Shown here: positions 34,391 to 62,464 of the stretch, one piece after another
Numbering within the stretch: position 1 is the first letter of the stretch
Layout of the letters: every line of letters begins with the position of its first letter
DNA from: Patescibacteria group bacterium
Lineage (GTDB): Bacteria; Patescibacteriota; Patescibacteriia; JAHJFT01
Reading direction: 5' to 3'
Assembly: GCA_028710985.1 (NCBI GenBank)
Contig: JAQTTB010000001.1
Coordinates: 523,014 to 587,013 of the forward strand
Length of the DNA: 64,000 nt
Program-made: the position numbers and the translations under genes
The notes under the pieces: model-generated
What the model was told of the DNA's origin: nothing
Seen by the model: only the letters and a program-made list of their open reading frames with translations
Databases searched by the model: none

Positions 34391-35572
34391 TTGCCCGACC
34401 TGCCTGCCGGCAGGCAGGTTCACCGTATGACCAAGAGGCCGCCATTTTTTAGCAAACCATCCAGGATCATTCTCTGGGTTGCGATTTGCGCGACTGTAAT
34501 TTTTTCAATTTATATTCTTGTCATGCCCAAGGGAAGTACGAAGCAGATCGAGCTCGTGAGCCTCCCAAAGAGAATGCCCACGCCCGAAGAGGTGCGTGGG
34601 ATTTATGTTACTTCGTTCATCGCCGCCCAGCCCGAATTGCGCCAGGAGCTCGTAAATCTCGTTGACCGTACCGACCTCAATACAATGGTTATTGATATCA
34701 AAGATGCCTTAGGCAACCTTGCGTTTGAACCGCGCCGGCCGACTTTCCGCGATATCGGACGCTCCGATATGCAGATAACCGATTTTAGCGAATGGCTTGC
34801 GGACTTGCATGACCGCGGCATCTATACGGTGGCGCGCATGCCGGTTTTTCAGGACGAGGCGCTGGCCCAGGTGCATCCCGAGTGGGCGATTCGCCGGCAG
34901 AGCGGCGGGGTCTGGCATGACTGGCAAGGCAAGGCCTGGATCGATCCGGGCTCCCAGGAAGCCTGGGAGTACATCGCCGACACGGCGCGTGAGGCCTATG
35001 ACCTTGGTTTTGATGAAGTGAATTTTGACTATATCCGCTTTCCTTCGGACGGGGATCTCTCGCAGATTGTATATACCTATCACCGCAACGATGAAAGACG
35101 CAAATATGTCACCATGGAGGAATTCTATGAATGGCTGGACTCGGAGTTGAACTATCTGCCGATCCCGTTGTCTGTCGATCTTTTCGGGCTAACGTATGTC
35201 AAACAGAATCAGGAAGACGATATGAATATCGGCCAGCGCATCGCCGATGCGATTGAACATTTTGAATATATCTGCCCCATGGTTTACGCGAGCCATTATC
35301 CGGCTGGATTTTTGGGATATGAAAACCCGGCGGAACATCCGTACGAAATCGTGAAAGACAGTCTGACTATCGGCGCGGAAATCATCCAGGAATACGGCGG
35401 CGATCCGCATCAGTCGCGGCCGTGGATTCAGGATTTTAACATGGGTGCGGATTACACGCCGGAAATGGTGCGCGGTCAGATTAATGCCGAGCGTGAAGTT
35501 GGTGCAAGTGGTTTCGTCGCCTGGAACGCGCGCAACATTTACTCCGAAGAGGCTTTTAAAAATCTTGAATAA
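34391..35572 (+). CDS. Putative glycoside-hydrolase-like TIM-barrel protein with an N-terminal TM anchor. It may correspond to the GHL10/DUF4015-type family.
   Basis: Single N-terminal TM; VRGIYVTSFIAAQPE...MVIDIKDALGNLAFEP. The family assignment is recalled, not searched. Confidence 0.35.
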   Translation: MPDLPAGRQVHRMTKRPPFFSKPSRIILWVAICATVIFSIYILVMPKGSTKQIELVSLPKRMPTPEEVRGIYVTSFIAAQPELRQELVNLVDRTDLNTMVIDIKDALGNLAFEPRRPTFRDIGRSDMQITDFSEWLADLHDRGIYTVARMPVFQDEALAQVHPEWAIRRQSGGVWHDWQGKAWIDPGSQEAWEYIADTAREAYDLGFDEVNFDYIRFPSDGDLSQIVYTYHRNDERRKYVTMEEFYEWLDSELNYLPIPLSVDLFGLTYVKQNQEDDMNIGQRIADAIEHFEYICPMVYASHYPAGFLGYENPAEHPYEIVKDSLTIGAEIIQEYGGDPHQSRPWIQDFNMGADYTPEMVRGQINAEREVGASGFVAWNARNIYSEEAFKNLE

Positions 35573-40551: not shown

Positions 40552-41917
40552 CGCTTCACAGCTTTACAATTTTTCTCAGTGCCCCTACCGCGTCCACCTT
40601 GATATTTTCGGAGATGAGAAAGAGAAATCGCCGGAATCGGATTTCCTCGCCATGCTGATCGAGGAGGGCGTGCGTCATGAAAAAGACGCCATCGCTGAAA
40701 TGCCATTCTTAGAGGTGGAGGCGCGCGGCACGCTTACGGCACGAGCCGAAGTTACACGCGACCTGATGAAAAAGAAAACGCCCTGGATTTATCAGGGCGT
40801 GCTTCTGACTCGCACCATGGTCGGCATTCCTGATATTTTGGAATATACGGGCGGCCGGTATATCCCCGTGGAAATCAAGTCCGGTGCCGGTCTTAAGGAA
40901 GCGTATATCCAGCAAATCTGTTTTTACGATGAGTTGCTCGGCGAGCTTTTTGGACGTCGTTCGGGTCGCGGTAAAATAATAAATATCAAGAAAGAAATTT
41001 TGGAAGTGGACTGCAATGCCTCGCGTCGCGCCTTTCTTGATAACCTTGCCGCCCTTAAGAAAATCGCCTCGGGTGAAGAAGAGAGTGAGCTGGCCATCGG
41101 TTCGGATTGCAATAACTGCCACTGGAGAAAATTCTGCGAAGAAAAAGCGCGCGCCGAAGATGATCTTACTCTGATCCACGGTCTCGGCCGAGCGTTCAAA
41201 GAGGGGCTGAGGCAGGCCGGGATCAAAACCCAGGGCCAAGCCGCTAAGGTCGATCCGTCGCTCGCGCGCGAAATCCGGCGCCTCGGTCCGGCAAAGCTTG
41301 AAAAATTCCGCGAACAGGCTAAGGTGAACATTGCCGGCAAGATGATGGTTTTCGCGAGGCCCACGATGCGCTGCGCGCCCCTCGAGATATTCATCGATCT
41401 CGAAGGGGATCCGATGCTCGGGATAGACTACCTTATTGGTATGATCGTCCGAAAAAAGGGTAAGGAGCAGTATGTCAGCTTCGTTGCCCGCCGGCCCGAA
41501 GATGAGGCCGCGATGTGGGAGGAGTTCCTTAATTTCATGGCCGGCATCTCGGAAGATTACATTCTTTATCATTATCATAATTATGAAAAAGTGCATTTCA
41601 AGATGCTGTTCGAAAAATATGGCGGCGACGGAGAGCTTTATCATGAAATCGACTATGCGCTCGAGGATCTGAAGAGAACGATCGATAAATCAATGTATCT
41701 TCCGCTTACGCGCTATAGCCTCAAGTGCGTTGCGCGCCATTTGGGTTTTGAATGGCGCGCGGGAGAAGAGGCCGGAGGCGCAAATTCCATTATCTGGTAC
41801 GAGAAATATCTTGGGGATACTGAAAAGAATGCAGATTTGATGCAAAAAATTATTGACTACAATGCCGATGACTGCCGCGCGACCCGTGTGGTCAAAGACT
41901 GGCTTGAGAAAATTTGA
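40538..41917 (+). CDS. RecB-family nuclease of the TM0106/TIGR03491 type. It fuses a Cas4-like PD-(D/E)XK domain carrying a Cys cluster to an RNase H-like 3-prime-5-prime exonuclease domain.
   Basis: The N-terminus reads SQLYNFSQCPYRVHLD. A Cys cluster CNNCHWRKFC and a C-terminal region IDLEGDP...YHYHNYEK...DDCRAT are present. Confidence 0.6.
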   Translation: MPRLSASQLYNFSQCPYRVHLDIFGDEKEKSPESDFLAMLIEEGVRHEKDAIAEMPFLEVEARGTLTARAEVTRDLMKKKTPWIYQGVLLTRTMVGIPDILEYTGGRYIPVEIKSGAGLKEAYIQQICFYDELLGELFGRRSGRGKIINIKKEILEVDCNASRRAFLDNLAALKKIASGEEESELAIGSDCNNCHWRKFCEEKARAEDDLTLIHGLGRAFKEGLRQAGIKTQGQAAKVDPSLAREIRRLGPAKLEKFREQAKVNIAGKMMVFARPTMRCAPLEIFIDLEGDPMLGIDYLIGMIVRKKGKEQYVSFVARRPEDEAAMWEEFLNFMAGISEDYILYHYHNYEKVHFKMLFEKYGGDGELYHEIDYALEDLKRTIDKSMYLPLTRYSLKCVARHLGFEWRAGEEAGGANSIIWYEKYLGDTEKNADLMQKIIDYNADDCRATRVVKDWLEKI

Positions 41918-51127: not shown

Positions 51128-52225
51128 ATGGCTCGAATATCCATAAATATTGTCACCTGGAACGGCATGCGCTATCTTCCCGAGGCGCTTGAGTCGATTT
51201 CTAATCAGACATTCCAGGATATTGAAATAGTGATAATTGATAATGGTTCAACCGACGGCACGGTTGAATATATCCGCGATAATTTTACCGGAATTACGCT
51301 TCTACGGAATATGCGCAACCTCGGTTTCGCGCATGGCCACAATCAGGGAATCCGCTTGGTGCTGAACCGATGGCAGAATCAGGATTTGGAAAATAGTTTC
51401 ATTCTCGTTACTAATCAAGATATTATTTTGCGTAAGGATTTTTTGGAAAAAATGATTTCCGTCGCCGAGACGGCGCCGCGCGCGGCGAGTTTTGGCGGAA
51501 AGTTGTTTAAGGCGTTTTTTGCTACAGCTGAAGATAATATCGAAGACAGCATCAAGTCGGATACGCTCGATTCCACTGGCCTCCGGTGCTTTAGATCGCA
51601 CCGTTTCGTGGACAGGGGGGCTGGTGAGCGCGATCAGGGGCAGTATGATGCCGAGAGGGAGGTTTTCGGTGTATCCGGGGCGATTATGATGCTGCGCGCT
51701 TCGGCACTCGCGAGTGTGAGATATAAAGATGAGTTTTTTGATGAAAATTATTTTGCGTATAAAGAGGATGTCGATCTTGCCTGGCGTTTGCGCTTGGCGG
51801 GATGGGGGAGCCTGTATGTTCCCGAAGCGATCGCTCATCATTACCGCGGCGCCTACTCGGCCGAACGCGCCGGATGGATGGAGACCTGGCGCAGCCGTAA
51901 GAGCCGCTCGATGATTGTCAAATTAAATTCGTACGTCAATCATTACCTGACGATTATAAAAAACGCGCATATCCGCAATATCATCCTGCGCCTCCCGTGG
52001 ATTATTGCCTACGAGCTTAAAAAAAATATTTATTTATTTTTTCTTGAGCCTCGGGTTTTCTGGAAAGGGCTTTTTAAACTTTCCGTGAAGCTTCCGGACG
52101 CGCTCCGTAAGAGAAAATTCATCCTTTCCCGCGCCATGCCTACCGGCCCGCTTCGCCATAGCTTCAGCGAGGCGAGCAGGCAGGCCGCGGCGCGCCCGGC
52201 GGAGATAAGAAAATGGTTCAAGTAA
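51128..52225 (+). CDS. Family-2 glycosyltransferase
   Basis: ISINIVTWNGMRYLPEALESISNQTFQDIEIVIIDNGSTDGT. The start is at an internal ATG; the ORF track begins at 51035. Confidence 0.75.
   Translation: MARISINIVTWNGMRYLPEALESISNQTFQDIEIVIIDNGSTDGTVEYIRDNFTGITLLRNMRNLGFAHGHNQGIRLVLNRWQNQDLENSFILVTNQDIILRKDFLEKMISVAETAPRAASFGGKLFKAFFATAEDNIEDSIKSDTLDSTGLRCFRSHRFVDRGAGERDQGQYDAEREVFGVSGAIMMLRASALASVRYKDEFFDENYFAYKEDVDLAWRLRLAGWGSLYVPEAIAHHYRGAYSAERAGWMETWRSRKSRSMIVKLNSYVNHYLTIIKNAHIRNIILRLPWIIAYELKKNIYLFFLEPRVFWKGLFKLSVKLPDALRKRKFILSRAMPTGPLRHSFSEASRQAAARPAEIRKWFK
52137..52190. repeat. 52-bp repeat copy inside the 3-prime coding region of the GT2 gene. It is the inverted copy of 59833-59884.
   Basis: The reverse complement reads cggcctgcctgctcgcctcgctgaagctatggcgaagcgggccggtaggcatggc. 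That matches 59833-59884 with 2 mismatches. Confidence 0.7.
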
Positions 52226-52229
52226 AAAT

Positions 52230-53021
52230 ATGGACGTCAGTATAATCATCCTAAATTACAAAAGTTCCGGTTTGGCGCGCCAGTGCATTAAAAGCATTGT
52301 TGCAGCTGCGCCGAAACTTGAGTATGAAATTATTGTCGTTGATAACAATTCTCACGACGGCATTGGGAGAATGCTTCGCGAGCAGTTCCCGCAAGTAAAA
52401 TTTATTCAGTCCAGCCGCAACGCCGGCTTTGCCGCGGGCAATAACATCGGCCTGCGCGTCGCCACCGGACGCTATGCCATGATCGTGAATCCGGACATTA
52501 TTGTGAATCCCGGAACCCTGGAGGAAATGGTAAAAGAAATGGATGCCCATCCCGAAATCGGCTTGCTCGCGCCGCAGCTCCTAAATCCCGACAAAACAAT
52601 TCAGTATTCATGCTATCGTCTTCCGACATTCGGCATACCGTTTTATCGCCGCACGCCGCTCGGTCTCACACCTCGCGGTAAGCGCATGATCCGCTCGTAT
52701 CTTATGGCCGAATGGGACCATGCCGCTCCGCGCGAGATTGATTGGTGCGTCGCCGCCTGCATCATGGTTCGGCGAAGCGCCGTTGAGTGCGTTGGTTATT
52801 TTGACGAAAGATATTTTATGTATTTTGAAGACGCCGACTGGTGCCGTCGGTTTCATCAAGCCGGATTCAGGGTAGTATATTTTCCACGTGCAAAAATGTT
52901 TCATTATCACATCCGTCAGTCCGCTGATGTGCCGTGGTTCATGGGATTATTTCAAAAAATAAGCCGCATCCATATGGCAAGCGCGTTAAAATATTTCTGG
53001 AAGTGGAAGGGCAAGGAATAA
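52230..53021 (+). CDS. Family-2 glycosyltransferase
   Basis: VSIIILNYKSSGLARQCIKSIV...EIIVVDNNSHDG. Confidence 0.75.
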   Translation: MDVSIIILNYKSSGLARQCIKSIVAAAPKLEYEIIVVDNNSHDGIGRMLREQFPQVKFIQSSRNAGFAAGNNIGLRVATGRYAMIVNPDIIVNPGTLEEMVKEMDAHPEIGLLAPQLLNPDKTIQYSCYRLPTFGIPFYRRTPLGLTPRGKRMIRSYLMAEWDHAAPREIDWCVAACIMVRRSAVECVGYFDERYFMYFEDADWCRRFHQAGFRVVYFPRAKMFHYHIRQSADVPWFMGLFQKISRIHMASALKYFWKWKGKE

Positions 53022-53038
53022 ATATTTAAAATAAAAAA

Positions 53039-55078
53039 ATGTACGAGTATCCAACAAATTTTGTCGCGCAGGCTCCGAGTGAAGTTCGTAATGTCCGGGT
53101 CGGCCGGCCGAAGTGGCCGTATATCGGAGCGGTGCTTTTGATTATTATCGTTGTATTGGTAATCGCCGCCGTGCCCTACGCCCTGCTTGCCAACAATATT
53201 TACAACGAGGCTCTTGCCGGAAAGGCAAATTTAGAAGAAGCGCAGAATTACGCCGTGGCGCTTAAATTTGACGGCGCCCGCGAGCAGATCGACGACGCGG
53301 TTGGGCACTTTATATCGGCGCGCCGGAGCTTTATTCCGTTCAAAATTTTTATTTGGATGCCGTGGATCGGAAGGCAGATTAAAGCCGTGGACAGTCTTTT
53401 GGAAACCGGAGTTGAAACATCCGAAGCGGTCGGCGACCTTCTCGAGGTCGGTGAAGAAATTTATAAAGTTTTTGAATTGTCCGAAGAAATCAAGGCGGAC
53501 ATTAAGCCCGAAATATCCGGCGGCGTCCGGTTCATTGATCTTGACCGCGAAACAAAAAGAGAAATTTTGAAAAAATTATACGAGTCGGGTCCGCGCATCC
53601 AGGAAGCGCTCGTCCGCATCGACCTCGCCATATCGAGCTTCAGCCGTATTCCGCAGGACGATTTGGCCAAGCCGCTCCGCGACGCCATCGCGCCGTTTGC
53701 CGACAAGCTTCCGGAATTCAAGAAACAGCTGACGCTCGCCGTGCCGCTCGTAAAGATTCTGCCCGAACTCGCCGGTTATCCCGAACCGAAAAATTATCTT
53801 ATACTATTATCCAACAACGCCGAGCTCCGGCCGGCTGGCGGATTTCTTGGCACTTATGGAATATTTAAGGTCGCGGACGGTGAAATTCTGGACCTCTCGA
53901 CCCACGATGTGTACGCGCTTGACCGCCAGGCCGAATCTTTTTTGCGCGTGGATCCGCCGCCGCCGCTCGTGAAATATCTCAAGGTGAACAACTGGTATAT
54001 GCGCGACGCCAACTGGTCGCCGGATTTTGCTGCGTCGGCGCAGAAGGTTCTTTGGTTTTATTCCGAAGAGGCGCGCGGGGTTGCCACCCGCCGCGGTTCG
54101 CCGCTCCCCGAAGCGCCGCTTATAAATTTTAACGGCGTGATTTCCGTGAACCCGACCGTAGTTGCGGACATTCTTTCTATCATCGGCCCGATTACGATTG
54201 AAAATCAAACATTTAATTCTGAGAATTTTATTGATTCGCTCGAGTATCAGGTTGAAGTTGCTTTTCTTTCCGACGGCACCCCGCGCAGTCAGCGAAAAGA
54301 AATTATTAGCCTGCTTTCGGCGGAGATAATTGATAAATTATTTTCACTCCCGGCTGTGAAATGGATAGATGTTCTACGCGAGGCAGAACGTGGGCTGGAA
54401 GAGCGGGAAATTATTGTTTATGAAAACGACCCCGATATTCAGGAATCGCTTGAATTCCAAAATTGGGCCGGACGCGTCCGGTCGACTGACGGAGATTTCC
54501 TGAAAGTCGTTGACGCCAATCTCGCGAGTCTTAAAACCGATCCGTACGTTGAGCGTCAAATCAAATACGAATCTTGGTTTGAGGAGGACGGCGCTCTCAT
54601 GGCCCGGGTGAATATTCATTATAAAAACACAGCCGGCTTCAGCTGGAAGACGACGCGTTATCGCACTTATACCCGCGTCTACGCGCCCGAGGGAAGTGAG
54701 TTGGTTTCCGTTACCGGCAGTCTCAGGGATGATAAACTCGCCAATCCCGGTCTTGAGCCCGGCACGCCGGACGAATATAACGAGCTCGGCAAAACGGTTT
54801 TTGGCGCCTTCACCGCCATTGAGCCCGGAGCCCAGGGCGATCTTGTCTTCACCTACAAACTGCCCGAGTCGGTCAGCGCAATGATAAAGAACGGAGATTA
54901 TAATCTTTACGTTGAAAAACAGGCCGGAGCGGTGGCTTATGGCTTGACTTTGTCCCTGAATTTTGATAAAAACTTAAAGCAAGCCGAACCGGCAGAGCTT
55001 GAATCGCACTGGGGAGACCGGAGTTATAATCTTGAGACCGACCTTAGGGTCGATCGCACCGTCAATATAAAATTCTAA
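53039..55078 (+). CDS. DUF4012-like large membrane-anchored protein
   Basis: N-terminal TM followed by a long extracytoplasmic region. The DUF4012 assignment is recalled from similar gene neighbourhoods in glycan clusters, not searched. Confidence 0.45.
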   Translation: MYEYPTNFVAQAPSEVRNVRVGRPKWPYIGAVLLIIIVVLVIAAVPYALLANNIYNEALAGKANLEEAQNYAVALKFDGAREQIDDAVGHFISARRSFIPFKIFIWMPWIGRQIKAVDSLLETGVETSEAVGDLLEVGEEIYKVFELSEEIKADIKPEISGGVRFIDLDRETKREILKKLYESGPRIQEALVRIDLAISSFSRIPQDDLAKPLRDAIAPFADKLPEFKKQLTLAVPLVKILPELAGYPEPKNYLILLSNNAELRPAGGFLGTYGIFKVADGEILDLSTHDVYALDRQAESFLRVDPPPPLVKYLKVNNWYMRDANWSPDFAASAQKVLWFYSEEARGVATRRGSPLPEAPLINFNGVISVNPTVVADILSIIGPITIENQTFNSENFIDSLEYQVEVAFLSDGTPRSQRKEIISLLSAEIIDKLFSLPAVKWIDVLREAERGLEEREIIVYENDPDIQESLEFQNWAGRVRSTDGDFLKVVDANLASLKTDPYVERQIKYESWFEEDGALMARVNIHYKNTAGFSWKTTRYRTYTRVYAPEGSELVSVTGSLRDDKLANPGLEPGTPDEYNELGKTVFGAFTAIEPGAQGDLVFTYKLPESVSAMIKNGDYNLYVEKQAGAVAYGLTLSLNFDKNLKQAEPAELESHWGDRSYNLETDLRVDRTVNIKF

Positions 55079-55081
55079 ATT

Positions 55082-56086
55082 ATGTGGGTTAAAAAAATCG
55101 GCATTGATCTCGGAACAGCAACCGTGCTTGTCTACGTTCCAAAACGCGGCATCATTTTGAATGAGCCGTCGGTTGTTGCGATTTCCACGATTGATAAAAA
55201 AGTTCTGGCCGTGGGTCGCGAAGCGAAAGACATGCTCGGCCGCACGCCGGATTCAATCATTGCGCGCCGTCCCTTGAAAGACGGCGTAATTGCCGATTAT
55301 CGCACTACCGAAGCGATGCTTAAATATTTCATTAACAAGGCGCTGGGTGGCATGCGTCTTTTTCGTCCCGAGGTTATGGTCGCGGTTCCGGGCGGCATTA
55401 CCTCAACCGAGCGCCGCGCCGTGATTGACGCGGCCATCGCCGCCGGCGCCAAAGCGGCCTACATCATCAAAGAACCGATTGTCGCGGCCATCGGCGCCGA
55501 TATTCCGATTGGCAGCGCGTCCGGCCACATGGTTGTTGACATCGGCGGCGGCACCGCCGAGATTGCCGTAATCTCTTTGGGCGGAATCGTGGCTTCTGAA
55601 TCGGTGCGCATCGGCGGCACGAAGTTCGATCTCGCCATCATGGAGCACGTACGCCGCAAATACGGTCTCGCCATCGGCGAGCGCACGGCCGAAGAAGTAA
55701 AAATCAATATTGGCTCGGCCATGTATATGGAAAATAAATTGACCATGGAAGTAAAAGGCCGCGACATGATGACCGGATTGCCGCGCATCATCACCATCAC
55801 TTCGGACGATATTACCGATGCGATTCAAAATGAACTTGACGGTATCATTGACGCCATCAAAGACGTTTTGCAAAAAACCCCGCCCGAACTTTCGGCCGAT
55901 GTCATGGACAAGGGCATGATTTTGACCGGCGGTTCAGCCCTGCTTCGCAATCTTGGCCAACTTTTCCGCGAAGCAACCGGCGTGTCCGCCTACGTAGCGG
56001 ATGAGCCCCAGCTCTGCGTGGCAAAGGGCACCGGCATCGCGCTTGAAAATCTTGAATCCTACAAGCGTTCTATTTTTTCCGGATAA
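55082..56086 (+). CDS. mreB: Rod-shape-determining actin homolog MreB
   Basis: IGIDLGTATVLVYV...VAVPGGITSTERRAV...VVDIGGGTAEIAVISLGG. Confidence 0.9.
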   Translation: MWVKKIGIDLGTATVLVYVPKRGIILNEPSVVAISTIDKKVLAVGREAKDMLGRTPDSIIARRPLKDGVIADYRTTEAMLKYFINKALGGMRLFRPEVMVAVPGGITSTERRAVIDAAIAAGAKAAYIIKEPIVAAIGADIPIGSASGHMVVDIGGGTAEIAVISLGGIVASESVRIGGTKFDLAIMEHVRRKYGLAIGERTAEEVKINIGSAMYMENKLTMEVKGRDMMTGLPRIITITSDDITDAIQNELDGIIDAIKDVLQKTPPELSADVMDKGMILTGGSALLRNLGQLFREATGVSAYVADEPQLCVAKGTGIALENLESYKRSIFSG

Positions 56087-56095
56087 AAATTTATT

Positions 56096-57223
56096 ATGAT
56101 CATTGGGATTGAGGCGGCTCGTCCGAACCGGCCGCAAAAAACCGGCACCGAATGGTACGGTTACCACGTGATTCAGGAAATTAAAAAAATCGCCGATCCT
56201 TCGGATCGGTTTATTTTATATACAAATGATCCTCTCCGTTCCGGCCTTGAGATAATGCCCAATGCGAACTGGCGCGAGAAGCGGCTCGGCTGGCCGATTC
56301 CGAAGTTTTGGACCCAGGGCCGCCTGTCGCTCGAGATGCTCGTAAATTCGCCGGATGCGGTTTTTATACCCGCGCATGCCATGCCAATTATTCATGTCAA
56401 GAATACGGTGGTCACTCTGCATGACGTTGGTTTTGAAAGATTTCCCGAGCTTTATTCCCGCGCCGATCTCTGGTACCACCGTTGGTCCGCGAAATTCATC
56501 ATCCGCCATGCCGCGAAAATTATCACGGTTTCAAATTTTTCAAAAAACGAACTCGTTGAGCTTTATGGCGCTCCGGCGGAAAAAATCTTTGTTACGCATC
56601 TGGGCTACGATGCCGAACGCTATCGGGTTATTGAGCCGGCCGAGGTGGAAAAAGTTTTACTGAAGCATAGAATCAAAACGCCGTATATTTTTTATATCGG
56701 CCGCCTGGAGCGCAAAAAAAATATTCCGCTGCTTATTGAAGCCTTCGGACGCTTTAAGCAAAAGAATCAAAACGACTCGCACTCGCTCGTTCTGGTCGGT
56801 CGGCCGGGATTTGATTATGAAAAAATTCAGGAAAATATAAAAAAATTCAATCTTGAACAATGGGTAATCCAAACCGGCTGGGTGGGGGAGGATAGTATCC
56901 CGTATTTTTACAACGGCGCGGCGGCGTTTGTTTTTCCGAGCCGTTACGAAGGCTTCGGCATCCCGCTCATTGAAGCAATGGCCTGCGGCACGCCGATTCT
57001 CGCGTCGCGCGCCGGGTCCATTCCCGAAGTTGCGGCCGATGCGGCGTTGTATTTTGAAACCGAGAGTGCGGATTCGCTCATCGCGGGCATGGAAAATATT
57101 CTGAACAATCAGGAGTTGCGCGGCTGTCTCCGCGCCGCCGGCTTGGCCCGCTGCCAAAATTTTTCCTGGGCTCGTACCGCCCGTCAGACTTTGGAAATTT
57201 TGAAATCAAATTCTAGATTCTAG
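56096..57223 (+). CDS. Family-4 (GT-B) glycosyltransferase
   Basis: FPSRYEGFGIPLIEAMACGTPILASRAGSIPEV with EX7E-type motifs. Confidence 0.8.
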   Translation: MIIGIEAARPNRPQKTGTEWYGYHVIQEIKKIADPSDRFILYTNDPLRSGLEIMPNANWREKRLGWPIPKFWTQGRLSLEMLVNSPDAVFIPAHAMPIIHVKNTVVTLHDVGFERFPELYSRADLWYHRWSAKFIIRHAAKIITVSNFSKNELVELYGAPAEKIFVTHLGYDAERYRVIEPAEVEKVLLKHRIKTPYIFYIGRLERKKNIPLLIEAFGRFKQKNQNDSHSLVLVGRPGFDYEKIQENIKKFNLEQWVIQTGWVGEDSIPYFYNGAAAFVFPSRYEGFGIPLIEAMACGTPILASRAGSIPEVAADAALYFETESADSLIAGMENILNNQELRGCLRAAGLARCQNFSWARTARQTLEILKSNSRF

Positions 57224-57244
57224 CTTCTAGATTCTAGATTCTCC
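57209..57244. repeat. Tandem heptamer (TTCTAGA) x about 5 that straddles the GT4 stop codon. A terminator tccccgcaaggggatttttt follows.
   Basis: Read directly: ttctagattctagcttctagattctagattct. Confidence 0.55.
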
Positions 57245-57297
57245 GCCGCCTCCCCGCAAGGGGATTTTTTGTGTTATAATGTTGACATAATTTCAAT

Positions 57298-58065
57298 ATG
57301 ATTGAACAGGAGTTGCAAAAATTTGGCTTAAGCCAAAAAGAAATTAAGGTCTACCTTTCTTCGCTCCAGAGCGGTCCGCGCTCGGCGCAGGAGATTTCGC
57401 GCGTTGCCGGCGTCAACCGTGTCACGTGCTATGTCATCCTTGAATCCCTAAAGGGATACGGCTTGGTTACCCAGGTGGACGGGGAACGGGGCCGGCTTTT
57501 TGCCGCGGAAAATCCGGCGAATATCATAAGATTTTTGGAATCCCGCGAAAGAGAAATCCAGGATGTGAAGGCCAGGGTGCACCGCGCTATGCCTGAACTC
57601 ATGGCGATATTCAACGGCTTAGGCGATAAGCCGCTCATCCGTTTCCTTGACGGCATTGAAGGCATTGAGGTTATCCAGCGGGAGGTTTTTGAAAAAGATG
57701 TCAAAAACATTGACAGCATCGCCTGCCTGGATGCGGCGTTTGAACATATTGATCCCTACGAGTTCACCGAATATCGTGAGAACATGATCGCCAAGAAAAT
57801 TACCGGACGGACAATCTACACTTCAAAAAAATATACAACCGAATATCTGCCCGACGGATATGAAAAATGCCAGGAATTGCGCCGCCTGCCGTTTGAAAAA
57901 TTTAATTTTCCCGCCGAAATCTGGATTGCGGATAATTTCGCCGCCATTTTCAGCTTTCAGGGCAAGCCGGCGGTTATCGCGATTGAGCATCCTGCCATTA
58001 TTGCCGCAATGAAAACCTGGTTTGAGCTCGCGTGGGAAGCGGCCGCGCACCACGCCCAGCAATAA
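57298..58065 (+). CDS. TrmB-family transcriptional regulator-like protein
   Basis: FGLSQKEIKVYLSSLQSGPRSAQEISRVAGVNRVTCYVILESLKGYGLV N-terminal wHTH. Paralog of the 60072 gene. Confidence 0.55.
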   Translation: MIEQELQKFGLSQKEIKVYLSSLQSGPRSAQEISRVAGVNRVTCYVILESLKGYGLVTQVDGERGRLFAAENPANIIRFLESREREIQDVKARVHRAMPELMAIFNGLGDKPLIRFLDGIEGIEVIQREVFEKDVKNIDSIACLDAAFEHIDPYEFTEYRENMIAKKITGRTIYTSKKYTTEYLPDGYEKCQELRRLPFEKFNFPAEIWIADNFAAIFSFQGKPAVIAIEHPAIIAAMKTWFELAWEAAAHHAQQ

Positions 58066-58087
58066 ATTAAAGAAAACATTTTTAAAT

Positions 58088-60067
58088 ATGGCGTTTAAAA
58101 ATCTTTTTGAGCCGATAATGATCGGCTCGCTCAAATTAAAAAATCGTTTGGTCCTGCCACCCATGGTGCGAAACTGGGCAACCGAACGCGGCGAGGTGAC
58201 CGACCGATTGGTGGATCATTATGCCGCCCTCGCTCGCGGCGGTACGGCCATGCTGATTCTTGAGGCGATCTATGTTTCGCCCGAGGGTCGCGGCTTTACT
58301 TATCAGATGGGCATCGATAATGATGCCTTGGTTCCGGGACTAAAAAAATTAGTTGATGCCGCGCATCAATATGGCGCGGCAATCGGGCCGCAGCTATATC
58401 ATGCCGGCCGCCAGACAAACTCAAAAACTATCAGCCAGCCGCCGGTCGCGCCTTCGCCCATCCCGTGCCCGGTTCAGCGGGAAATGCCGCGCGAACTCTC
58501 GGCCGAGGAAATTTCCGAAATTGAAAACGCCTTCGCCGCGGCCGCCCTGCGCGCCAAGGGAGCGGGATTTGATTTTGTTGAAGTGCACGGTGCGCACGGT
58601 TATCTCATTACGCAATTTTTATCCGCGTATTCAAACAAAAGAAAAGACGCGTACGGCGGCGATCTTGAAGGCCGCATGGCATTTTTAAAAAATATCATTA
58701 AAAAAATTAGAGCTGCGGTTGGCCCGGATTATCCCGTGACCGTGCGGCTTTCGGGTGAGGAGCGCGTTCCCGGCGGTCTCACCATTGACGACACGAAAAA
58801 AATCGTCAAAGAGCTGGAAAAACTCGGCATTGACGCGGTGCACATTTCCGTCGGCAATTACGGAAGCTTTGCCGAGGGACTCATGATTCCGACCATGGCC
58901 GCGCCGACCGGAGCGCTGGTATATCTCGCCGAACAGGTGAAGAAATCAACCAGGCTGCCGGTAATCGCGGTCGGAAAAATCAACACCCCCGAACTCGCTG
59001 AAGAAATTATTGCGAACGGCCAGGCCGATATGGTTGCCCTCGGCCGGGAGCTTATGGCCGATCCGGAATGGCCGAACAAGGTGCGCGATGGCCGCGCCGA
59101 TGAGATTCAGCGGTGCATTGCCTGCAACCAGGGATGCATTGACCGGCTGTTTGCCGGGCTTGATACTCAGTGCGTGGTCAATCCGCTTTTCGGGCGCGAA
59201 CGCGAATTCGCGGTTACCCCGGCGGCTGATTTAAAAAAAATCATGGTGATCGGCGGCGGTCCGGCGGGCATGCAGGCCGCGATTGTCGCCAAGAAACGCG
59301 GACATGGAGTTGCGATTTATGAACAAGGAAGCGAACTTGGCGGCGCTTTGCTTTTTGCGCAGAAACCGCCGCATCGCGAGGGCATCGCCTGGCTGGTTAA
59401 GGATTTTATCGCTCAAATACACGAACTCGGCATTGAGGAAAATTTCAATACCGAAGTGACGCCCGAACTTGTCGCCGAGGTCAAACCCGACGCGATTATT
59501 ATCGCCACCGGCTCGGAGTGTGCCCTTCCTCCGATTCCGGGAGTAAATCTGCCGAACGTGATGTCGCCGCGCGATGTTCTTTCCGGCCAGGTCAGAGTTG
59601 GAAATAGTGTTATCGTCGCTGGCGGCGGCTGTGTCGGCGCCGAGGTAGCCGAATATTTGGTCGAGCGCGGACATAAAGTGAAAATTGTGGAAATGAGAGA
59701 GGCGATTGTCAGCGATCTTGGATTTGCGGACGGCGTTCAGCTGCGCGCCCGTTTGGAAAAACTTGGCGTTGAAATTTTTACAAAAACAAAAATTCTTGAA
59801 ATAAAAAAAGACGGTATTGTGATTGAGCGCGAAGGCCTGCCTGCTCGCCTCGCTGAAGCTGTGGCGAAGCGGGCCGGTAGGCAGGGCAAACGCGATGAAA
59901 TCGGTGGCGAGAGTCTGGTGCTTTGCCTCGGCTCAAAATCGGTTAATGATCTCGAAAAATTGCTCGTCGGAGCCGCGTCCGAAATCGTGGTTGTCGGCGA
60001 CGCCGTGGAACCGCGGCGTATTCTTGAAGCGGTCTACGAAGGCTATGCCGCCGGATTAAATATTTAA
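58088..60067 (+). CDS. Old-Yellow-Enzyme-family NADH:flavin oxidoreductase. It is fused to a pyridine-nucleotide-disulfide-oxidoreductase-like domain (2,4-dienoyl-CoA-reductase-like architecture).
   Basis: The N-terminal TIM barrel reads LKNRLVLPPMVRNWATERGEVTD...HGAHGYLITQFLS. The C-terminal Rossmann region reads MVIGGGPAGMQAA...VAGGGCVGAEVAE. The start is at an internal ATG; the ORF track begins at 58022. Confidence 0.8.
   Translation: MAFKNLFEPIMIGSLKLKNRLVLPPMVRNWATERGEVTDRLVDHYAALARGGTAMLILEAIYVSPEGRGFTYQMGIDNDALVPGLKKLVDAAHQYGAAIGPQLYHAGRQTNSKTISQPPVAPSPIPCPVQREMPRELSAEEISEIENAFAAAALRAKGAGFDFVEVHGAHGYLITQFLSAYSNKRKDAYGGDLEGRMAFLKNIIKKIRAAVGPDYPVTVRLSGEERVPGGLTIDDTKKIVKELEKLGIDAVHISVGNYGSFAEGLMIPTMAAPTGALVYLAEQVKKSTRLPVIAVGKINTPELAEEIIANGQADMVALGRELMADPEWPNKVRDGRADEIQRCIACNQGCIDRLFAGLDTQCVVNPLFGREREFAVTPAADLKKIMVIGGGPAGMQAAIVAKKRGHGVAIYEQGSELGGALLFAQKPPHREGIAWLVKDFIAQIHELGIEENFNTEVTPELVAEVKPDAIIIATGSECALPPIPGVNLPNVMSPRDVLSGQVRVGNSVIVAGGGCVGAEVAEYLVERGHKVKIVEMREAIVSDLGFADGVQLRARLEKLGVEIFTKTKILEIKKDGIVIEREGLPARLAEAVAKRAGRQGKRDEIGGESLVLCLGSKSVNDLEKLLVGAASEIVVVGDAVEPRRILEAVYEGYAAGLNI
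59833..59884. repeat. 52-bp repeat copy inside the OYE-family gene (it encodes ...GLPARLAEAVAKRAGRQG...).
   Basis: Read directly: ggcctgcctgctcgcctcgctgaagctgtggcgaagcgggccggtaggcagg. Confidence 0.7.
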
Positions 60068-60071
60068 AAAT

Positions 60072-60836
60072 ATGAAACTTGAAAAAACATTGAACAAGCT
60101 CGGACTCTCGGACAAGGAAGCGCGCGTCTACCTCGCCGCGCTTGAACTCGGGCCCGAGGCCGTGCAGGAGATTGCCAAAAAATCCGGCGTCAACCGCGCC
60201 ACCACTTACGTGATGATTGAGTCGCTCATCCGGCGCGGGCTCATGAGCTCATACGAGCAGGGGAAAAAACGGCTTTTCGCGCCAGAAGAACCCAACCGGC
60301 TTTTTAACTCTCTGAAATCCGCGGAGCAGGAAATTGAAGAAAGACAAAGCGCGCTTAAGTCAATCATGCCCGATCTTCTCGCCATTTGCGCTGGCGCCGA
60401 AAACAAGCCGCGCATCAGATTATTTGAGGGCTACGAAGGCATCATCTCCATAAAACAAGATATTCAGGAATCGGGAACTGATTATATGGATAACATACTT
60501 GATATGGATGAATTCAAAAGAATATTTTCTGGCCATGAGTTTGATGAGCAGAATAAAAAATTTTTTAAAAGTAAATTAAACTATCGCTGCATTTTAACCT
60601 CCGGTCCGCTGGAACAAGAAATATTAGAAAAGTTTAAAGTGTTTTCTGGCATCAGATTCTTGGAAAGAGGAAAATTTTTTTTCCCGGGAGAGATCGGGAT
60701 GTACGCAAACAAGTCCGCGTTCCTAACTTATCGCGGCACCATGATCGGCGTAATAATTGAAAGTGCGGAAATCAATCAAATGCTTCGGGCCATGTTCAGC
60801 ATGCTTTGGGAGATGAATATTGGCGAAAAATTATAA
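60072..60836 (+). CDS. TrmB-family transcriptional regulator-like protein (paralog)
   Basis: LGLSDKEARVYLAALELGPEAVQEIAKKSGVNRATTYVMIESLIRRGLM. Confidence 0.55.
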   Translation: MKLEKTLNKLGLSDKEARVYLAALELGPEAVQEIAKKSGVNRATTYVMIESLIRRGLMSSYEQGKKRLFAPEEPNRLFNSLKSAEQEIEERQSALKSIMPDLLAICAGAENKPRIRLFEGYEGIISIKQDIQESGTDYMDNILDMDEFKRIFSGHEFDEQNKKFFKSKLNYRCILTSGPLEQEILEKFKVFSGIRFLERGKFFFPGEIGMYANKSAFLTYRGTMIGVIIESAEINQMLRAMFSMLWEMNIGEKL

Positions 60837-60965
60837 AAAAAGACACCGACCGAGTACCGGTGGTGCCGTGCATATCCCCCAATTTATTGAGATTCCTCCC
60901 GAATTTTTCTTCTGAACTTTATGTTAAGGCTTGAAAGCTTGCCGTTTACGTTATATGCGGCATCG

Positions 60966-61343
60966 TTAGCCACCCCAGCCGCAATTGCAGTGCCGGACCG
61001 CGGACTTGCGCCAGCGGCGCATGTATGGCGTCTTCCAGCCCTTGAGGACCGGATCGTCCGCCGCCTGAAACGCGCTCTCCATGAGCGCGATTTTGTTTAC
61101 TTCGGTCGCAGAGGCACCGCGTGCCCTGCCCGGCATGTTGTTTGCATTCTCCCTTGGGAGAGCGGCAAACTCCGGACAAAGCAGTACGTCATCGCACTTA
61201 CTCGCCAGCCGCTCTCCCTCGGATCCGTGTGGAACCCTGGAAAGTGACTTTGCTTCTCGGAAAAACTCGCTGATTGGCTGCTTCAGTACGCTTGCCATCA
61301 TTCTGTTTTCCGTGAGCACGAGTTTGCGCGATAGACTTGGCAT
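60966..61343 (-). CDS. Hypothetical protein
   Basis: 125-aa ORF with an AAGGAGG RBS 7 nt upstream on the minus strand. It is preferred over the overlapping plus-strand ORF at 60921-61247, which lacks an RBS. Confidence 0.4.
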   Translation of the reverse strand: MPSLSRKLVLTENRMMASVLKQPISEFFREAKSLSRVPHGSEGERLASKCDDVLLCPEFAALPRENANNMPGRARGASATEVNKIALMESAFQAADDPVLKGWKTPYMRRWRKSAVRHCNCGWGG

Positions 61344-62464
61344 GATATTCCTCCTTGAGCACGGTTTAGAATTAACTGGCCTGCATTGATGATTTGGACC
61401 TTATAATTGGTTTTGTTCTTGGCCGCGAATCGCCAATATCCGGTTTACCCCACAAGGGGAACCGGCCACTATATCACAAGATTTCACGCTTGTCAATGGA
61501 GGGGGGGATGTGTTAAAAAAGCGGACATCTTGTCCGCATTTTTTGTTCGTAAATCGGTAAATTGATTTGAATTTTAGATAATTCTGTCAGCAACTCTTGA
61601 CAAATTCCGCAGAGCGTACTAATGTTCAAGGTTCGTTGCGAAAATAATATTTTCAGGGTTGTGTAAATAAGTTTGAAGTAAAAATATTACGGGAGGGGAT
61701 TGAGGGCCAATCTCGCAAATCCTACTTATCTACACCATTGTGAAAATTTTGTCAAGCGATTGACAGATTAATCACGCGTAGAGGAGAAAGATAAGAATGC
61801 CTTGGTATATCTCGTAGTGCCGGGGCGTTTTTGTATTGTAGTAGATGATTGTGGACTTGTATAAAACGAAAACAGACCCAGAAGGGATCTGTCAGGAAAT
61901 TAAGCACTTGAAATGATTTATTGGTTCATTTCAGACCAGGACAGCTTTCCGCCTCACCACTTGTCTTCCCACGGCATGGAAAGACACCAGGTGACTGATG
62001 GGGGCTTGATCGTGTCTAGATCGTGTTTTGTGGCTCCTTAGGCCACGCCTTTTACCTGAATCCGCTCATGTCCTCTTGTCCTCCTTGGCTGATCGAAGTC
62101 CGAGAGCATCGTAGCACTAGCACAACATGCCCATATAATATCACATTTTGGCACTTTTGTCAAGAGACTGCCAGCCCGCAGCAAAGCTGCGGGCAATTTT
62201 AAGTTGTAAATTTTAAATTTTAATTCAAGCCCCAATTTCTAAATTTTTAATAACAAAATGTCGCGTCGCTGCTTGTTTGAAGAATTTTGAATTTATAATT
62301 TAAAATTGAATTATAATTTAAAATTAAAAAAGTCCTCATTTTGCATTACGCGCAAAAGAGGACCGGCACCCAATTCTTATATTAACAAACAATTTATTAG
62401 CATAAGGATTGTGAGCGCTTTTTGACAGAATGTCGAGGCGCGCTCGAGAATACCTCGGAAGGAG

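What the first reader, a model, noticed from the sequence alone, without database searches (positions are those of the whole stretch)
52137..59884. 52-bp near-identical inverted repeat embedded in two unrelated coding sequences
ggcctgcctgctcgcctcgctgaagct(g/a)tggcgaagcgggccggtaggca(g/t)gg occurs at 59833-59884, inside the OYE-family flavoenzyme gene, where it encodes GLPARLAEAVAKRAGRQG. Its reverse complement occurs at 52137-52190, in the C-terminal tail of a GT2 glycosyltransferase, where it encodes MPTGPLRHSFSEASRQAA.

The two copies are 50 of 52 identical, against a background in which the surrounding genes share nothing.

In-frame tolerance in two different proteins, in opposite orientations, suggests one of two things: a small mobile insertion (a MITE-like miniature element tolerated as a surface loop or tail), or recent gene conversion between the two sites.
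Basis: seen in the sequence. Interest (0 to 1): 0.55.

Follow-up and report, generated by a model that had tools for sequence, protein, structure and literature searches.

The report
Selfish hairpin DNA inserted inside genes
Two unrelated genes of an uncultivated Patescibacteria (CPR) bacterium each carry the same 51-base hairpin-forming DNA element as an in-frame passenger; it belongs to a widespread family of tiny nested palindromes in CPR genomes that sit even inside RNA polymerase and ribosomal protein genes, as the "palindromic elements" of Rickettsia do.

Summary
Two copies in opposite orientation (52136-52186 and 59834-59884) differ at 2 of about 52 bases; chance expects 0. Each is an exact 17-codon insertion, absent from 59 homologs of the GT2 glycosyltransferase and 59 of the OYE/2,4-dienoyl-CoA-reductase-like flavoenzyme.

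The unit folds into a long hairpin. It is composite: a 20-nt palindrome (P1, CCTGCCTGCCGGCAGGCAGG) with a 30-nt hairpin "core" in its apical loop. P1 also occurs alone in the window (34398-34419).

Public collections hold about 55 genuine copies in GTDB genomes and about 50 in metagenomes, mostly diverse Patescibacteria. About 57% lie in long ORFs and are read in all five stop-free frames. Hosts include RpoB, uL6, CysRS, TopA, UvrA and ribonucleotide reductase.

- Copies are 90% alike within genomes and 58% between them.
- No consistent target-site duplication, no GTAG/CGTC tag, and no transposase in the window.
- One uL6 site shows empty, P1-only and P1+core states.
- AlphaFold2 places the flavoenzyme insert as the only low-confidence segment, at a β-hairpin turn.

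Best reading: a non-autonomous selfish palindrome tolerated as a passenger peptide. It works like Rickettsia RPEs and intragenic REPs but belongs to none of those families. How it moves is unknown.

The parts
52136..52186 (-). Copy A: 51-nt (17-codon) insertion in the C-terminal tail of the GT2 gene, element in reverse orientation; encodes MPTGPLRHSFSEASRQA. An equivalent phase is 52133-52183, because GCC flanks both sides. The 50-nt palindrome proper is 52135-52184.
   Evidence: absent from 59 GT2 homologs, whose 12-aa tail (..EMRKWF.) resumes in frame after the insert; hairpin -45.5 kcal/mol, z = -4.1
59834..59884 (+). Copy B: 51-nt (17-codon) insertion in the Pyr_redox_2 domain of the OYE-like flavoenzyme gene, element in forward orientation; encodes GLPARLAEAVAKRAGRQ. 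An equivalent phase is 59837-59887, because GGC flanks both sides. The 50-nt palindrome proper is 59836-59885.
   Evidence: absent from 59 homologs; the only low-pLDDT segment of the AlphaFold2 model, at the turn between strands 576-581 and 602-606; present in two independent Logan assemblies
59845..59874 (+). 30-nt inner hairpin ('core') of copy B, TCGCCTCGCTGAAGCTGTGGCGAAGCGGGC. This is the module conserved across genomes and also found inside other outer palindromes.
   Evidence: it is exactly the difference between the P1-only and P1+core states at the uL6 site
52146..52175 (-). 30-nt inner hairpin ('core') of copy A (reverse complement on the + strand).
34398..34419 (.). Solo outer module: perfect 22-nt palindrome ACCTGCCTGCCGGCAGGCAGGT (P1 = 34399-34418) in the 38-nt gap between the stop at 34388 and the ATG at 34427. 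It is the outer stem of the 51-nt element without the core.
   Evidence: 5 pattern matches against 0.55 expected; the same P1 occurs alone in L045, L052, L057 and L059 and in 35 viral-contig stretches
51128..52225 (+). Host gene 1: GT2 family glycosyltransferase (P0121, 365 aa; homologs 346-350 aa).
58088..60067 (+). Host gene 2: FMN/FAD oxidoreductase of the OYE / 2,4-dienoyl-CoA-reductase-like type (P0001, 659 aa; homologs mostly 641-643 aa).

Best explanation
The two sequences are copies of a small, non-autonomous, selfish palindromic DNA element that entered both genes secondarily.

Anatomy (shown). The unit is a roughly 50-nt G+C-rich imperfect palindrome built from two nested modules. 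The outer module is a 20-nt palindrome, P1 (CCTGCCTGC|CGGCAGGCAGG). The inner module is a 30-nt hairpin core (TCGCCTCGCTGAAGCTnnGGCGAAGCGGGC) sitting 1-3 nt off P1's dyad, in what would be P1's apical loop.

Behaviour (shown). The composite, the core and P1 are each dispersed repeats in many Patescibacteria and some other genomes. Genomes carry their own sequence subfamilies. Copies lie both between genes and inside genes. Genic copies are read through in whichever of the five stop-free frames the insertion happened to create, which gives unrelated peptides.

Mechanism (inferred).
1. The element multiplies within a genome by a hairpin-dependent insertion that leaves no regular target-site duplication. 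The most likely agent is a trans-acting enzyme acting on single-stranded or cruciform DNA, of the HUH/Y1 kind (RAYT, IS200/IS605-like). Recombination or repair at hairpin tips is the alternative route.
2. The core can be gained or lost at the tip of a resident palindrome.
3. Selection then filters the insertions. In this roughly 92%-coding genome, only those survive that add a multiple of 3 nt, contain no stop codon and land in a tolerant place (β-turns, linkers, termini).
4. The encoded 17 residues are therefore passengers, not a selected module.
For: - Insertion status: exact 17-aa gaps in 59/59 homologs of each host. Downstream conserved sequence stays in frame, including the ..EIRKWFK tail of GT2 and the GDA motif region of the flavoenzyme.
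- Hairpin. 87.5% of cells are paired against 49% or less in slid registers; 37 double-sided changes against 18±3.3 in shuffles, 0/500.
- Dispersed family: the 20-mer scan of GTDB species genomes gave 90 stretches, of which about 55 carry the whole inner hairpin. They include Saccharibacteria, Sungiibacteriota (6 or more copies in one MAG), Yanofsky-, Moranii-, Lipton-, Shapiro-, Terry-, Kaiser-, Jorgensen- and Falkowbacteria and Paceibacterota, plus MAGs labelled WOR-3, Omnitrophota, Elusimicrobia and others. The metagenome scan added 54 loci.
- Genic copies: 32/56 lie in stop-to-stop ORFs of 150 aa or more, 21 of them internal, and all five open frames are used.
- Hosts confirmed by Pfam: RpoB, class II RNR, TopA, UvrA, CysRS, an S1 protein, uL6 and a Wzy ligase. 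The uL6 insert aligns to a gap in every solved uL6.
- Intragenomic proliferation: variable parts are 0.90 identical within genomes and 0.58 between them, p = 5e-15.
- Recent gain and modularity: at one uL6 codon boundary the closest relative (83% nt, 91% aa) is empty, another genome has P1 only (18 nt), and L004 has P1+core (48 nt). The two filled states differ by exactly the 30-nt core, and 33 other relatives are empty.
- Solo P1 in the window.
- Tolerated location: the AlphaFold2 model has pLDDT 95.2 overall, and only residues 581-600 (the insert) drop to 60-64.
- No regular TSD among 19 full-length copies.
Against: - No mobilising enzyme was identified. None of 10 unassigned window ORFs is a transposase, and the rest of the 744-kb contig could not be read.
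- Only two composite copies plus one solo P1 occur in these 64 kb. The copy number in the source genome is unknown.
- No presence/absence polymorphism between strains of one species was seen. The three assemblies of this locus are identical.
- The window copies are both flanked by GGC...GGC, which could be a 3-bp duplication, but this is not general.
- '5 of 6 frames open' is what a 72.5% G+C 51-mer gives by chance (P = 0.54). It is not evidence of adaptation to coding regions.
- Near-identity of the 30-nt core across classes is partly ascertainment, because the search demanded an exact 20-mer or 21-mer.
- Translation through the element is inferred from frame conservation, not observed.
- Flank complementarity around non-canonical cores is only modestly above control (p = 0.026).
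Confidence: 0.75

Rival explanations
1. Recombination-driven spread without a transposase. Palindromes extrude hairpins or cruciforms, which are nicked at the tip. Repair copies the centre (the core) or the whole palindrome from another copy. This is gene conversion or 'homing' among palindromes, with apical deletions generating the shorter forms.
For: Variation is concentrated at the hairpin tip: a long form, an '-ATT-' form and a loop-less form. The P1-only and P1+core states differ by exactly 30 nt with a 2-nt GC microhomology at the junction. There is no regular TSD. Within-genome homogeneity is strong. No transposase lies in the window.
Against: Conversion needs a pre-existing homologous recipient, yet copies sit at unrelated sites in unrelated genes. 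The core also occurs inside outer stems of unrelated sequence. The first arrival at a naive site is left unexplained.
Confidence: 0.15
2. A selected cis-acting hairpin. Each copy is kept because the DNA or RNA structure does something locally, such as acting as a terminator or attenuator, stabilising mRNA, pausing the ribosome for folding, or binding a protein.
For: The hairpin is maintained with compensatory changes. About 43% of copies are intergenic or at gene ends, and some are followed by T-runs (L019, L063). REPs are credited with such roles (PMC3733652).
Against: Copies sit mid-ORF in RpoB, TopA, UvrA, CysRS and uL6 at non-homologous positions, and they are absent from close relatives of the same genes. 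Palindromy would also be maintained by any hairpin-dependent copying mechanism. Nothing matches in Rfam.
Confidence: 0.07
3. Recent gene conversion or duplication between just these two sites.
For: The two window copies are closer to each other (2 differences) than to most copies elsewhere. They share the rare ..CCGGTAGGCA.. variant.
Against: Both are insertions relative to all homologs. The same sequence exists in about 100 other loci in other genomes. The flanks share nothing.
Confidence: 0.02
4. A selected peptide module (for example a short amphipathic helix) acquired convergently by both proteins.
For: The flavoenzyme insert is predicted to be helical (residues 586-595).
Against: The two window copies are read from opposite strands and give unrelated peptides. 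Across the family, five different frames are used. Conservation is at the nucleotide and hairpin level.
Confidence: 0.01

Closest known systems
Rickettsia palindromic elements (RPEs; Ogata et al. 2000 Science 290:347; 2002 Genome Res 12:808, as summarised in PMC10969869 and PMC1779305)
   Same: Palindromic, hairpin-forming dispersed repeats found both between genes and in frame inside unrelated, often essential genes. The insert is absent from orthologs. Families are lineage-specific. Inserts are predicted to be compatible with the protein fold. The mobilising mechanism is unknown. The host has a small genome and a dependent lifestyle.
   Different: RPEs are 100-150 bp and this unit is 51 nt (modules of 20 and 30 nt). 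Each RPE family encodes one conserved peptide, whereas this element is read in five frames. The taxon differs (Patescibacteria and others, not Rickettsiales). No sequence relationship was shown. Nested modular build has not been described for RPEs.
REPs, including intragenic REPs (GTAG- and CGTC-tagged superfamilies; Di Nocera et al. 2013, PMC3733652) and their RAYT transposases
   Same: Short G+C-rich stem-loops in many copies and species-specific families. Some lie inside genes, notably replication and repair genes such as uvrA, which is also a host here (L059). No TSD. Thought to be mobilised in trans.
   Different: The defining terminal GTAG or CGTC tetranucleotide is absent. REPs are predominantly extragenic and downstream of ORFs, whereas 57% of these copies are in long ORFs. 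No RAYT or REPtron was found in the window. No head-to-head REPIN dimers were seen.
Bacterial MITEs (for example Correia, ERIC, Nezha; review PMC10969869)
   Same: Small, non-autonomous and multi-copy with inverted-repeat ends. They can form in-frame fusions with ORFs.
   Different: No consistent target-site duplication, no identified parent IS, and a size at or below the lower limit for MITEs. The whole unit is one hairpin rather than TIRs flanking a body.
Small dispersed repeats (SDRs) of heterocystous cyanobacteria (Elhai et al. 2008, Genome Res 18:1484; cited from memory, could not be retrieved in the paper library)
   Same: Very small (about 20-30 nt) repeats, partly palindromic, that are found nested inside one another and inside other elements, with no known mobilising enzyme.
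   Different: Different sequences and taxa. A comparison of target sites and coding-region behaviour could not be made here.
Mitochondrial G+C-rich hairpin elements inside coding regions (Allomyces double-hairpin elements; yeast GC clusters; 'byp' elements of Magnusiomyces; from memory)
   Same: G+C-rich hairpins of 27-60 nt that invade protein-coding genes of compact genomes.
   Different: Byps are skipped by the ribosome and need not be 3n or stop-free. Here all four measured net inserts are 3n (51, 51, 48, 18 nt) and open, which points to plain translation. The genetic system is also different.

Membership tests
Rickettsia palindromic elements (RPE) | Dispersed repeat able to fold as a palindrome or hairpin | tested here: met
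   hairpin with covariation; about 100 copies in other genomes
Rickettsia palindromic elements (RPE) | In-frame insertion in ORFs, absent from orthologs | tested here: met
   59/59 homologs lack it in each host; uL6
Rickettsia palindromic elements (RPE) | Size 100-150 bp, one conserved encoded peptide per family, Rickettsiales host (PMC1779305, PMC10969869) | tested here: not met
   The unit is 51 nt. Five frames are used, giving five unrelated peptides. Hosts are Patescibacteria and others.
Rickettsia palindromic elements (RPE) | Sequence similarity to RPE-1 to RPE-10 consensus sequences | not testable with these tools
Rfam has no match.
GTAG/CGTC-tagged REP superfamilies | Terminal GTAG or CGTC tetranucleotide at one end of the palindrome (PMC3733652) | tested here: not met
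   GTAG/CTAC occurs anywhere in 7/48 copies and CGTC/GACG in 3/48. In the window copies GTAG is internal (..CCGGTAGGCA..) and is a minority variant of consensus GCAG.
GTAG/CGTC-tagged REP superfamilies | Predominantly extragenic, downstream of ORFs | tested here: not met
   32/56 copies lie inside stop-to-stop ORFs of 150 aa or more, 21 of them internal
GTAG/CGTC-tagged REP superfamilies | Cognate RAYT (HUH/Y1 transposase) flanked by the repeats (REPtron) | tested here: inconclusive
   None among 10 unassigned window ORFs, but only 64 kb of a genome with a contig of at least 744 kb could be read
MITE | Target-site duplication of fixed length flanking each copy | tested here: not met
   the best direct repeats are 1-4 nt at inconsistent periods in 19 full-length copies. 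GGC..GGC occurs in the window only. L004 has none against its empty site.
MITE | Terminal inverted repeats shared with an autonomous IS | not tested
   The ends are mutually complementary (CCTGCC../..GGCAGG), but no IS with these ends was sought or seen
Self-splicing or excised intervening sequence (intron, intein, IVS, bypass element) | Need not preserve frame; catalytic RNA or protein motifs; removed from the product | tested here: not met
   No Rfam intron match. At 17 aa it is far too small for an intein. All measured net inserts are 3n and stop-free. Removal from the product itself was not testable.

The most novel reading that the evidence does not exclude
The element is one visible piece of an undescribed, cross-phylum system of nested mini-palindromes: a 20-nt P1 and a 30-nt core, plus other outer stems such as GTCATTGCGAGCGA.. 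and GTCATTCCCGCGAA... These insert without target duplication into hairpin loops and into turn-encoding sites of essential genes and even tRNA genes. They are carried by phage-like contigs as well as by CPR and other uncultivated bacteria. They depend on a still unknown, widely shared hairpin-specific DNA insertion activity. This would make 'protein-coding palindromes' a general feature of reduced, host-dependent bacteria rather than a peculiarity of Rickettsia.
Probability: 0.3. Interest if true: 0.75.

Novelty: new member of a known kind. Interest (0 to 1): 0.55.

Why it matters
In-frame 'protein-coding palindromes' have been treated as a hallmark of Rickettsia, with scattered intragenic REPs elsewhere. 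Here the same phenomenon appears in Patescibacteria/CPR, a huge radiation of small-genome symbionts. It involves a much smaller element and reaches into RpoB, uL6, CysRS, TopA and UvrA.

This has practical consequences:
- Such inserts inflate and distort protein alignments, phylogenetic markers and structure predictions for CPR.
- They break de Bruijn assemblies at palindromes.
- They generate spurious 'hypothetical proteins'.

Conceptually, the three-state uL6 site (empty / P1 / P1+core) and the nesting of one hairpin in the loop of another give a tractable handle on an old question: how do tiny palindromes without transposase genes move? The parallel between two unrelated lineages with reduced genomes and dependent lifestyles suggests that weak selection, rather than any benefit, lets selfish DNA write itself into essential proteins.

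Tried and rejected
- Chance or artefact: rejected. Zero matches in shuffles, and two independent assemblies are identical to the window.
- Ancient conserved segment: rejected. It is absent from all homologs.
- Known RNA family: nothing in Rfam at gathering or at E ≤ 1, except a sub-threshold miRNA-hairpin hit at 29 bits against a gathering score of 90.5.
- More diverged copies in the window: blastn-short and an nhmmer profile found none besides the two copies and the solo P1.
- Target-site duplication: sought at periods of 48-54 nt with shifted boundaries, and none was consistent. The window's GGC..GGC is not general. One core-only copy (L042) has an 11-nt direct repeat, but it is unique.
- GTAG/CGTC REP tags: absent.
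- Adaptation to coding ('5 of 6 frames open'): rejected as evidence, since P = 0.54 by composition.
- Transposase, RAYT or RT in the window: 10 unassigned ORFs were scanned. They gave only a PCRF/RF-1 release factor, a carotenoid-synthesis-like membrane protein, a Cas4/PD-(D/E)XK + RNase_H_2 fusion and weak hits.
- CysRS against PDB: the alignment did not open a clean gap, so it is uninformative.
- ORF context of P1 in viral contigs: uninformative, because most are 60-68% G+C and long ORFs arise there by chance.
- Literature: six searches found no description of these elements in CPR/Patescibacteria. The library lacks most subscription journals, so absence is weak evidence.
- About 25 of the 90 genome hits and 3 of the 54 metagenome hits are chance coding matches in high-G+C genomes (LLASLKL and similar). 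These were excluded.

Full report
**1. The observation.** The window holds two copies of one sequence in opposite orientation. The repeat finder gives arms 52133-52193 and 59827-59887, 61 nt and 92% complementary. A 50-nt pattern from copy B matches only 59834-59883 (exact) and 52137-52186 on the minus strand (1 mismatch), and 100 dinucleotide shuffles gave no matches. In register, similarity starts and stops abruptly and the flanks share nothing. Copy A is a G+C spike: 0.68 against 0.36-0.38 next to it. Pfam confirms a GT2 glycosyltransferase and an Oxidored_FMN + Pyr_redox_2 flavoenzyme. Two Logan assemblies from different sequencing runs are identical to the window over 9.2 and 9.4 kb and contain copy B. 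One of them ends exactly inside copy A, as expected for a repeat or palindrome in a de Bruijn graph.

**2. Both copies are secondary insertions.** The flavoenzyme is P0001, from a Patescibacteria MAG whose longest contig is 744,538 bp. In an alignment with 59 homologs (47-62% identity, mostly 641-643 aa), the segment GLPARLAEAVAKRAGRQ is a clean 17-column gap in every other sequence..ERE[insert]GKRDE... The GT2 protein (P0121, 365 aa) aligned with 59 homologs (346-350 aa) shows the same pattern..SRA[MPTGPLRHSFSEASRQA]AARPAEIRKWFK. The conserved 12-residue tail resumes in frame after the insert. Each insert is therefore exactly 51 nt.

**3. Anatomy.**
- The unit is an imperfect palindrome. It folds at -33 to -45.5 kcal/mol, with z down to -4.1.
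- Across 48 copies, conservation has a sharp left edge and fades 50-51 nt later.
- The unit is composite. Window 34398-34419, in a 38-nt intergenic gap, is a perfect 22-nt palindrome, ACCTGCCTGCCGGCAGGCAGGT.
- This is the outer stem of the element without its middle. The 51-nt element equals P1 (CCTGCCTGC|CGGCAGGCAGG) plus a 30-nt hairpin, TCGCCTCGCTGAAGCTnnGGCGAAGCGGGC, placed 1-3 nt from P1's dyad.
- P1 alone also occurs in four other fetched loci.

**4. It is a widespread family.**
- A scan of one genome per GTDB species for a 20-mer from the left half gave 90 stretches. About 25 are chance coding matches in high-G+C genomes. About 55 carry the whole inner hairpin.
- By record title these include Saccharibacteria, a Sungiibacteriota MAG with at least 6 copies, Yanofsky-, Moranii-, Lipton-, Shapiro-, Terry-, Kaiser-, Jorgensen-, Falkow- and Moranbacteria, Paceibacterota and Spechtbacterales. 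There are also MAGs labelled WOR-3, Omnitrophota, Elusimicrobia, Bdellovibrionales, Planctomycetia and 'uncultured Gammaproteobacteria'. I did not verify these MAG labels.
- The source genome itself is not among the GTDB representatives that were hit.
- A metagenome scan for the right half in the window's ..GGTAGG.. variant gave 54 more loci. They include shorter forms whose apical part is replaced (-ATT-) or missing.
- In viral contigs the core occurs 3 times. P1 occurs in 35 stretches, several of them multi-copy.
- Rfam has no matching family.

**5. Behaviour in genes.**
- Of 56 genuine copies, 32 lie in stop-to-stop ORFs of 150 aa or more. Of these, 21 have at least 30 codons on both sides, 6 are near C-termini and 5 are near N-termini.
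- All five stop-free frames are used, and they give unrelated peptides: LPARLAEAPAKRAG, CLLASLKLRRSG, PARFAGASARRAG, PASPELQRGEQAG and LPAGPLRRSFSEASRQ.
- Pfam identifies hosts as RpoB, class II ribonucleotide reductase, topoisomerase I, UvrA, CysRS, an S1-domain protein, ribosomal protein uL6 and a Wzy-type ligase.
- In uL6 the insert aligns to a gap in every solved bacterial uL6, at the first β-hairpin turn.
- Having five of six frames open is not special. A 72.5% G+C 51-mer does so with P = 0.54.

**6. Evidence bearing on mechanism.**
- (a) Hairpin maintenance. On 45 distinct copies, 87.5% of cells pair, against 49% or less in slid registers. There are 37 double-sided changes against 18±3.3 in shuffles (0/500). 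Six outer-stem pairs covary.
- (b) Nesting. Some core copies sit at the tip of unrelated palindromes. L028 has GCATTTTTTC[core]GAAAAAATGC, and L061, L067, L084 and L092 sit inside other recurrent palindromes. Flank complementarity of non-canonical copies exceeds a mismatched-pair control only modestly (p = 0.026).
- (c) No regular target-site duplication in 19 full-length copies.
- (d) Subfamilies. Variable positions are 0.90 identical within genomes and 0.58 between them (p = 5e-15). The two window copies share a rare variant.
- (e) A three-state site in uL6. The closest relative of the element-bearing uL6 (91% aa, 83% nt) is empty (GAT|GGT). A more distant genome has 18 nt of P1 at the same codon boundary. 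L004 has 48 nt of P1+core. The two filled states differ by exactly the 30-nt core, and 33 other relatives are empty. This shows recent gain. It also shows either gain or loss of the core inside a resident P1, or a strongly preferred target.
- (f) Net insert sizes measured so far are 51, 51, 48 and 18 nt, all multiples of three.
- (g) No transposase was found among 10 unassigned window ORFs.

**7. Structural tolerance.** AlphaFold2 with a 68-sequence alignment models the 659-aa flavoenzyme at mean pLDDT 95.2 and pTM 0.92. The only low-confidence stretch is residues 581-600 (block means 64 and 60), which is the insert. It is drawn as a short helix (586-595) at the turn between strands 576-581 and 602-606. 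The GT2 insert is 12 residues from the C-terminus.

**8. Explanation.** The best-supported account is a non-autonomous selfish palindrome that multiplies within genomes and is filtered by selection. Survivors inside genes add 3n nucleotides without stops at tolerant sites, and the peptides are passengers.
- Shown: insertion status, hairpin, family, subfamilies, genic read-through, modular build and a tolerated location.
- Inferred: translation of the insert and the mode of movement.
- For movement I favour a hairpin-dependent, duplication-free insertion by a trans-acting enzyme of the HUH/Y1 kind (about 0.35 for that step). Tip-directed recombination or repair is the main rival.

**9. Comparison with what is known.**
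- Functionally this is the RPE phenomenon: 100-150 bp elements, intergenic and in frame in coding regions, with lineage-specific families (PMC1779305, PMC10969869).
- It also resembles the intragenic REPs of Di Nocera et al., who noted a bias to replication and repair genes including uvrA (PMC3733652).
- Membership fails for each named family. It has no GTAG/CGTC tag and is not mainly extragenic. It has no TSD (MITE). It is not 100-150 bp with one peptide per family (RPE).
- Six literature searches found no description of such elements in CPR. The library is incomplete, so this is weak evidence of novelty.
- I file it as a new member of a known kind: small palindromic repeats that colonise coding sequence in frame.

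**10. Verdict.** The gene-conversion alternative is wrong as an origin. Interest is moderate to good (0.55). It is ordinary in kind, but the extension to CPR, the presence in core information-processing genes and the nested architecture with a three-state site make it worth a dedicated survey.

Noticed in passing
window 34398-34419: Perfect 22-nt palindrome ACCTGCCTGCCGGCAGGCAGGT in the short gap between two + strand genes. It is the outer stem of the 51-nt element without its 30-nt core.
   Followed up: yes
L004 (uL6, Saccharibacteria MAG) vs L185 and L186: The same codon boundary in ribosomal protein uL6 exists in three states in different genomes: empty (L185), 18-nt P1 only (L186), and 48-nt P1+core (L004). 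This means either a hotspot hit twice, or core gain or loss inside a resident palindrome.
   Followed up: yes
L174 2239-2330 (viral contig IMGVR_UViG_3300033148_008720): ARAGORN calls a 92-nt tRNA-Met in which the 20-nt P1 palindrome (2284-2303) occupies the variable region like a long extra arm. L151 has the same flanks, and L181 has P1 after GGTAGCTCAGTTGGTA (a D-arm-like sequence), but neither is called as a tRNA.
   Followed up: partly
L092 1540-2190; L061, L067, L084, L046, L011, L075: Other recurrent palindromes of CPR genomes (GTCATTCCCGCGAA..GGGAATC; GTCATCCTGA..GGATC; GTCATTGCGAGCGA..CGCGGCAATCC) carry the 30-nt core at their tip. This suggests a larger ecosystem of nested mini-palindromes.
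   Followed up: partly
L042 about 4510-4570: A 33-nt core-only copy is flanked by an 11-nt perfect direct repeat, TCTGCTATCTG. It is the only copy with a long flanking duplication.
   Followed up: no
L009 (RpoB, Moraniibacteriota) and L059 (UvrA): The nhmmer profile reports a second, more diverged hit in the same loci. The RpoB ORF also contains ..ARLAVATAERAGAKAG.., which resembles the element peptide. UvrA also carries solo P1 (..TLPAGRQGLGKS..).
   Followed up: no
core positions GGCGAAGCGGG (window 59863-59873) and GCTGAAGC (59852-59859): The right arm contains the heptamer GCGAAGC. From memory (Hirao et al., NAR 1994), this forms an unusually stable DNA mini-hairpin. It may be relevant to single-strand folding of the element.
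   Followed up: no
window 60900-62450: An ORF-poor stretch of about 1.5 kb in an otherwise roughly 92% coding window, with A+T-rich inverted repeats at 62194-62330 and an 18-nt tandem duplicate at 62293-62328. It has no Rfam match and no tRNA.
   Followed up: partly
window 57298-58065 and 60072-60836: Two paralogous TrmB-family regulators (255 and 254 aa) bracket the flavoenzyme gene. They share a 43-nt stretch at 72% identity (57407 / 60184).
   Followed up: no
window 27702-28421 and 28631-29233: Tandem paralogous ORFs with nearly identical N-terminal 50 residues (MDK[IL]N[PA]SMPG.AKNMSAVWIIVAI..YYFQTLSQEKFVAQE). They look like small membrane-anchored proteins.
   Followed up: no
window 40538-41917: A 459-aa ORF combining Cas4/PD-(D/E)XK nuclease and RNase_H_2 superfamily domains. 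It is not obviously linked to the element.
   Followed up: no
reconstructed targets of window copies A and B and of L004: Post hoc observation with n = 3: in a suitable orientation, all three insertions lie immediately 5' of GGY (GAA|GGC, CGC|GGC, GAT|GGT). This could reflect microhomology with the element end ..CAGG.
   Followed up: partly
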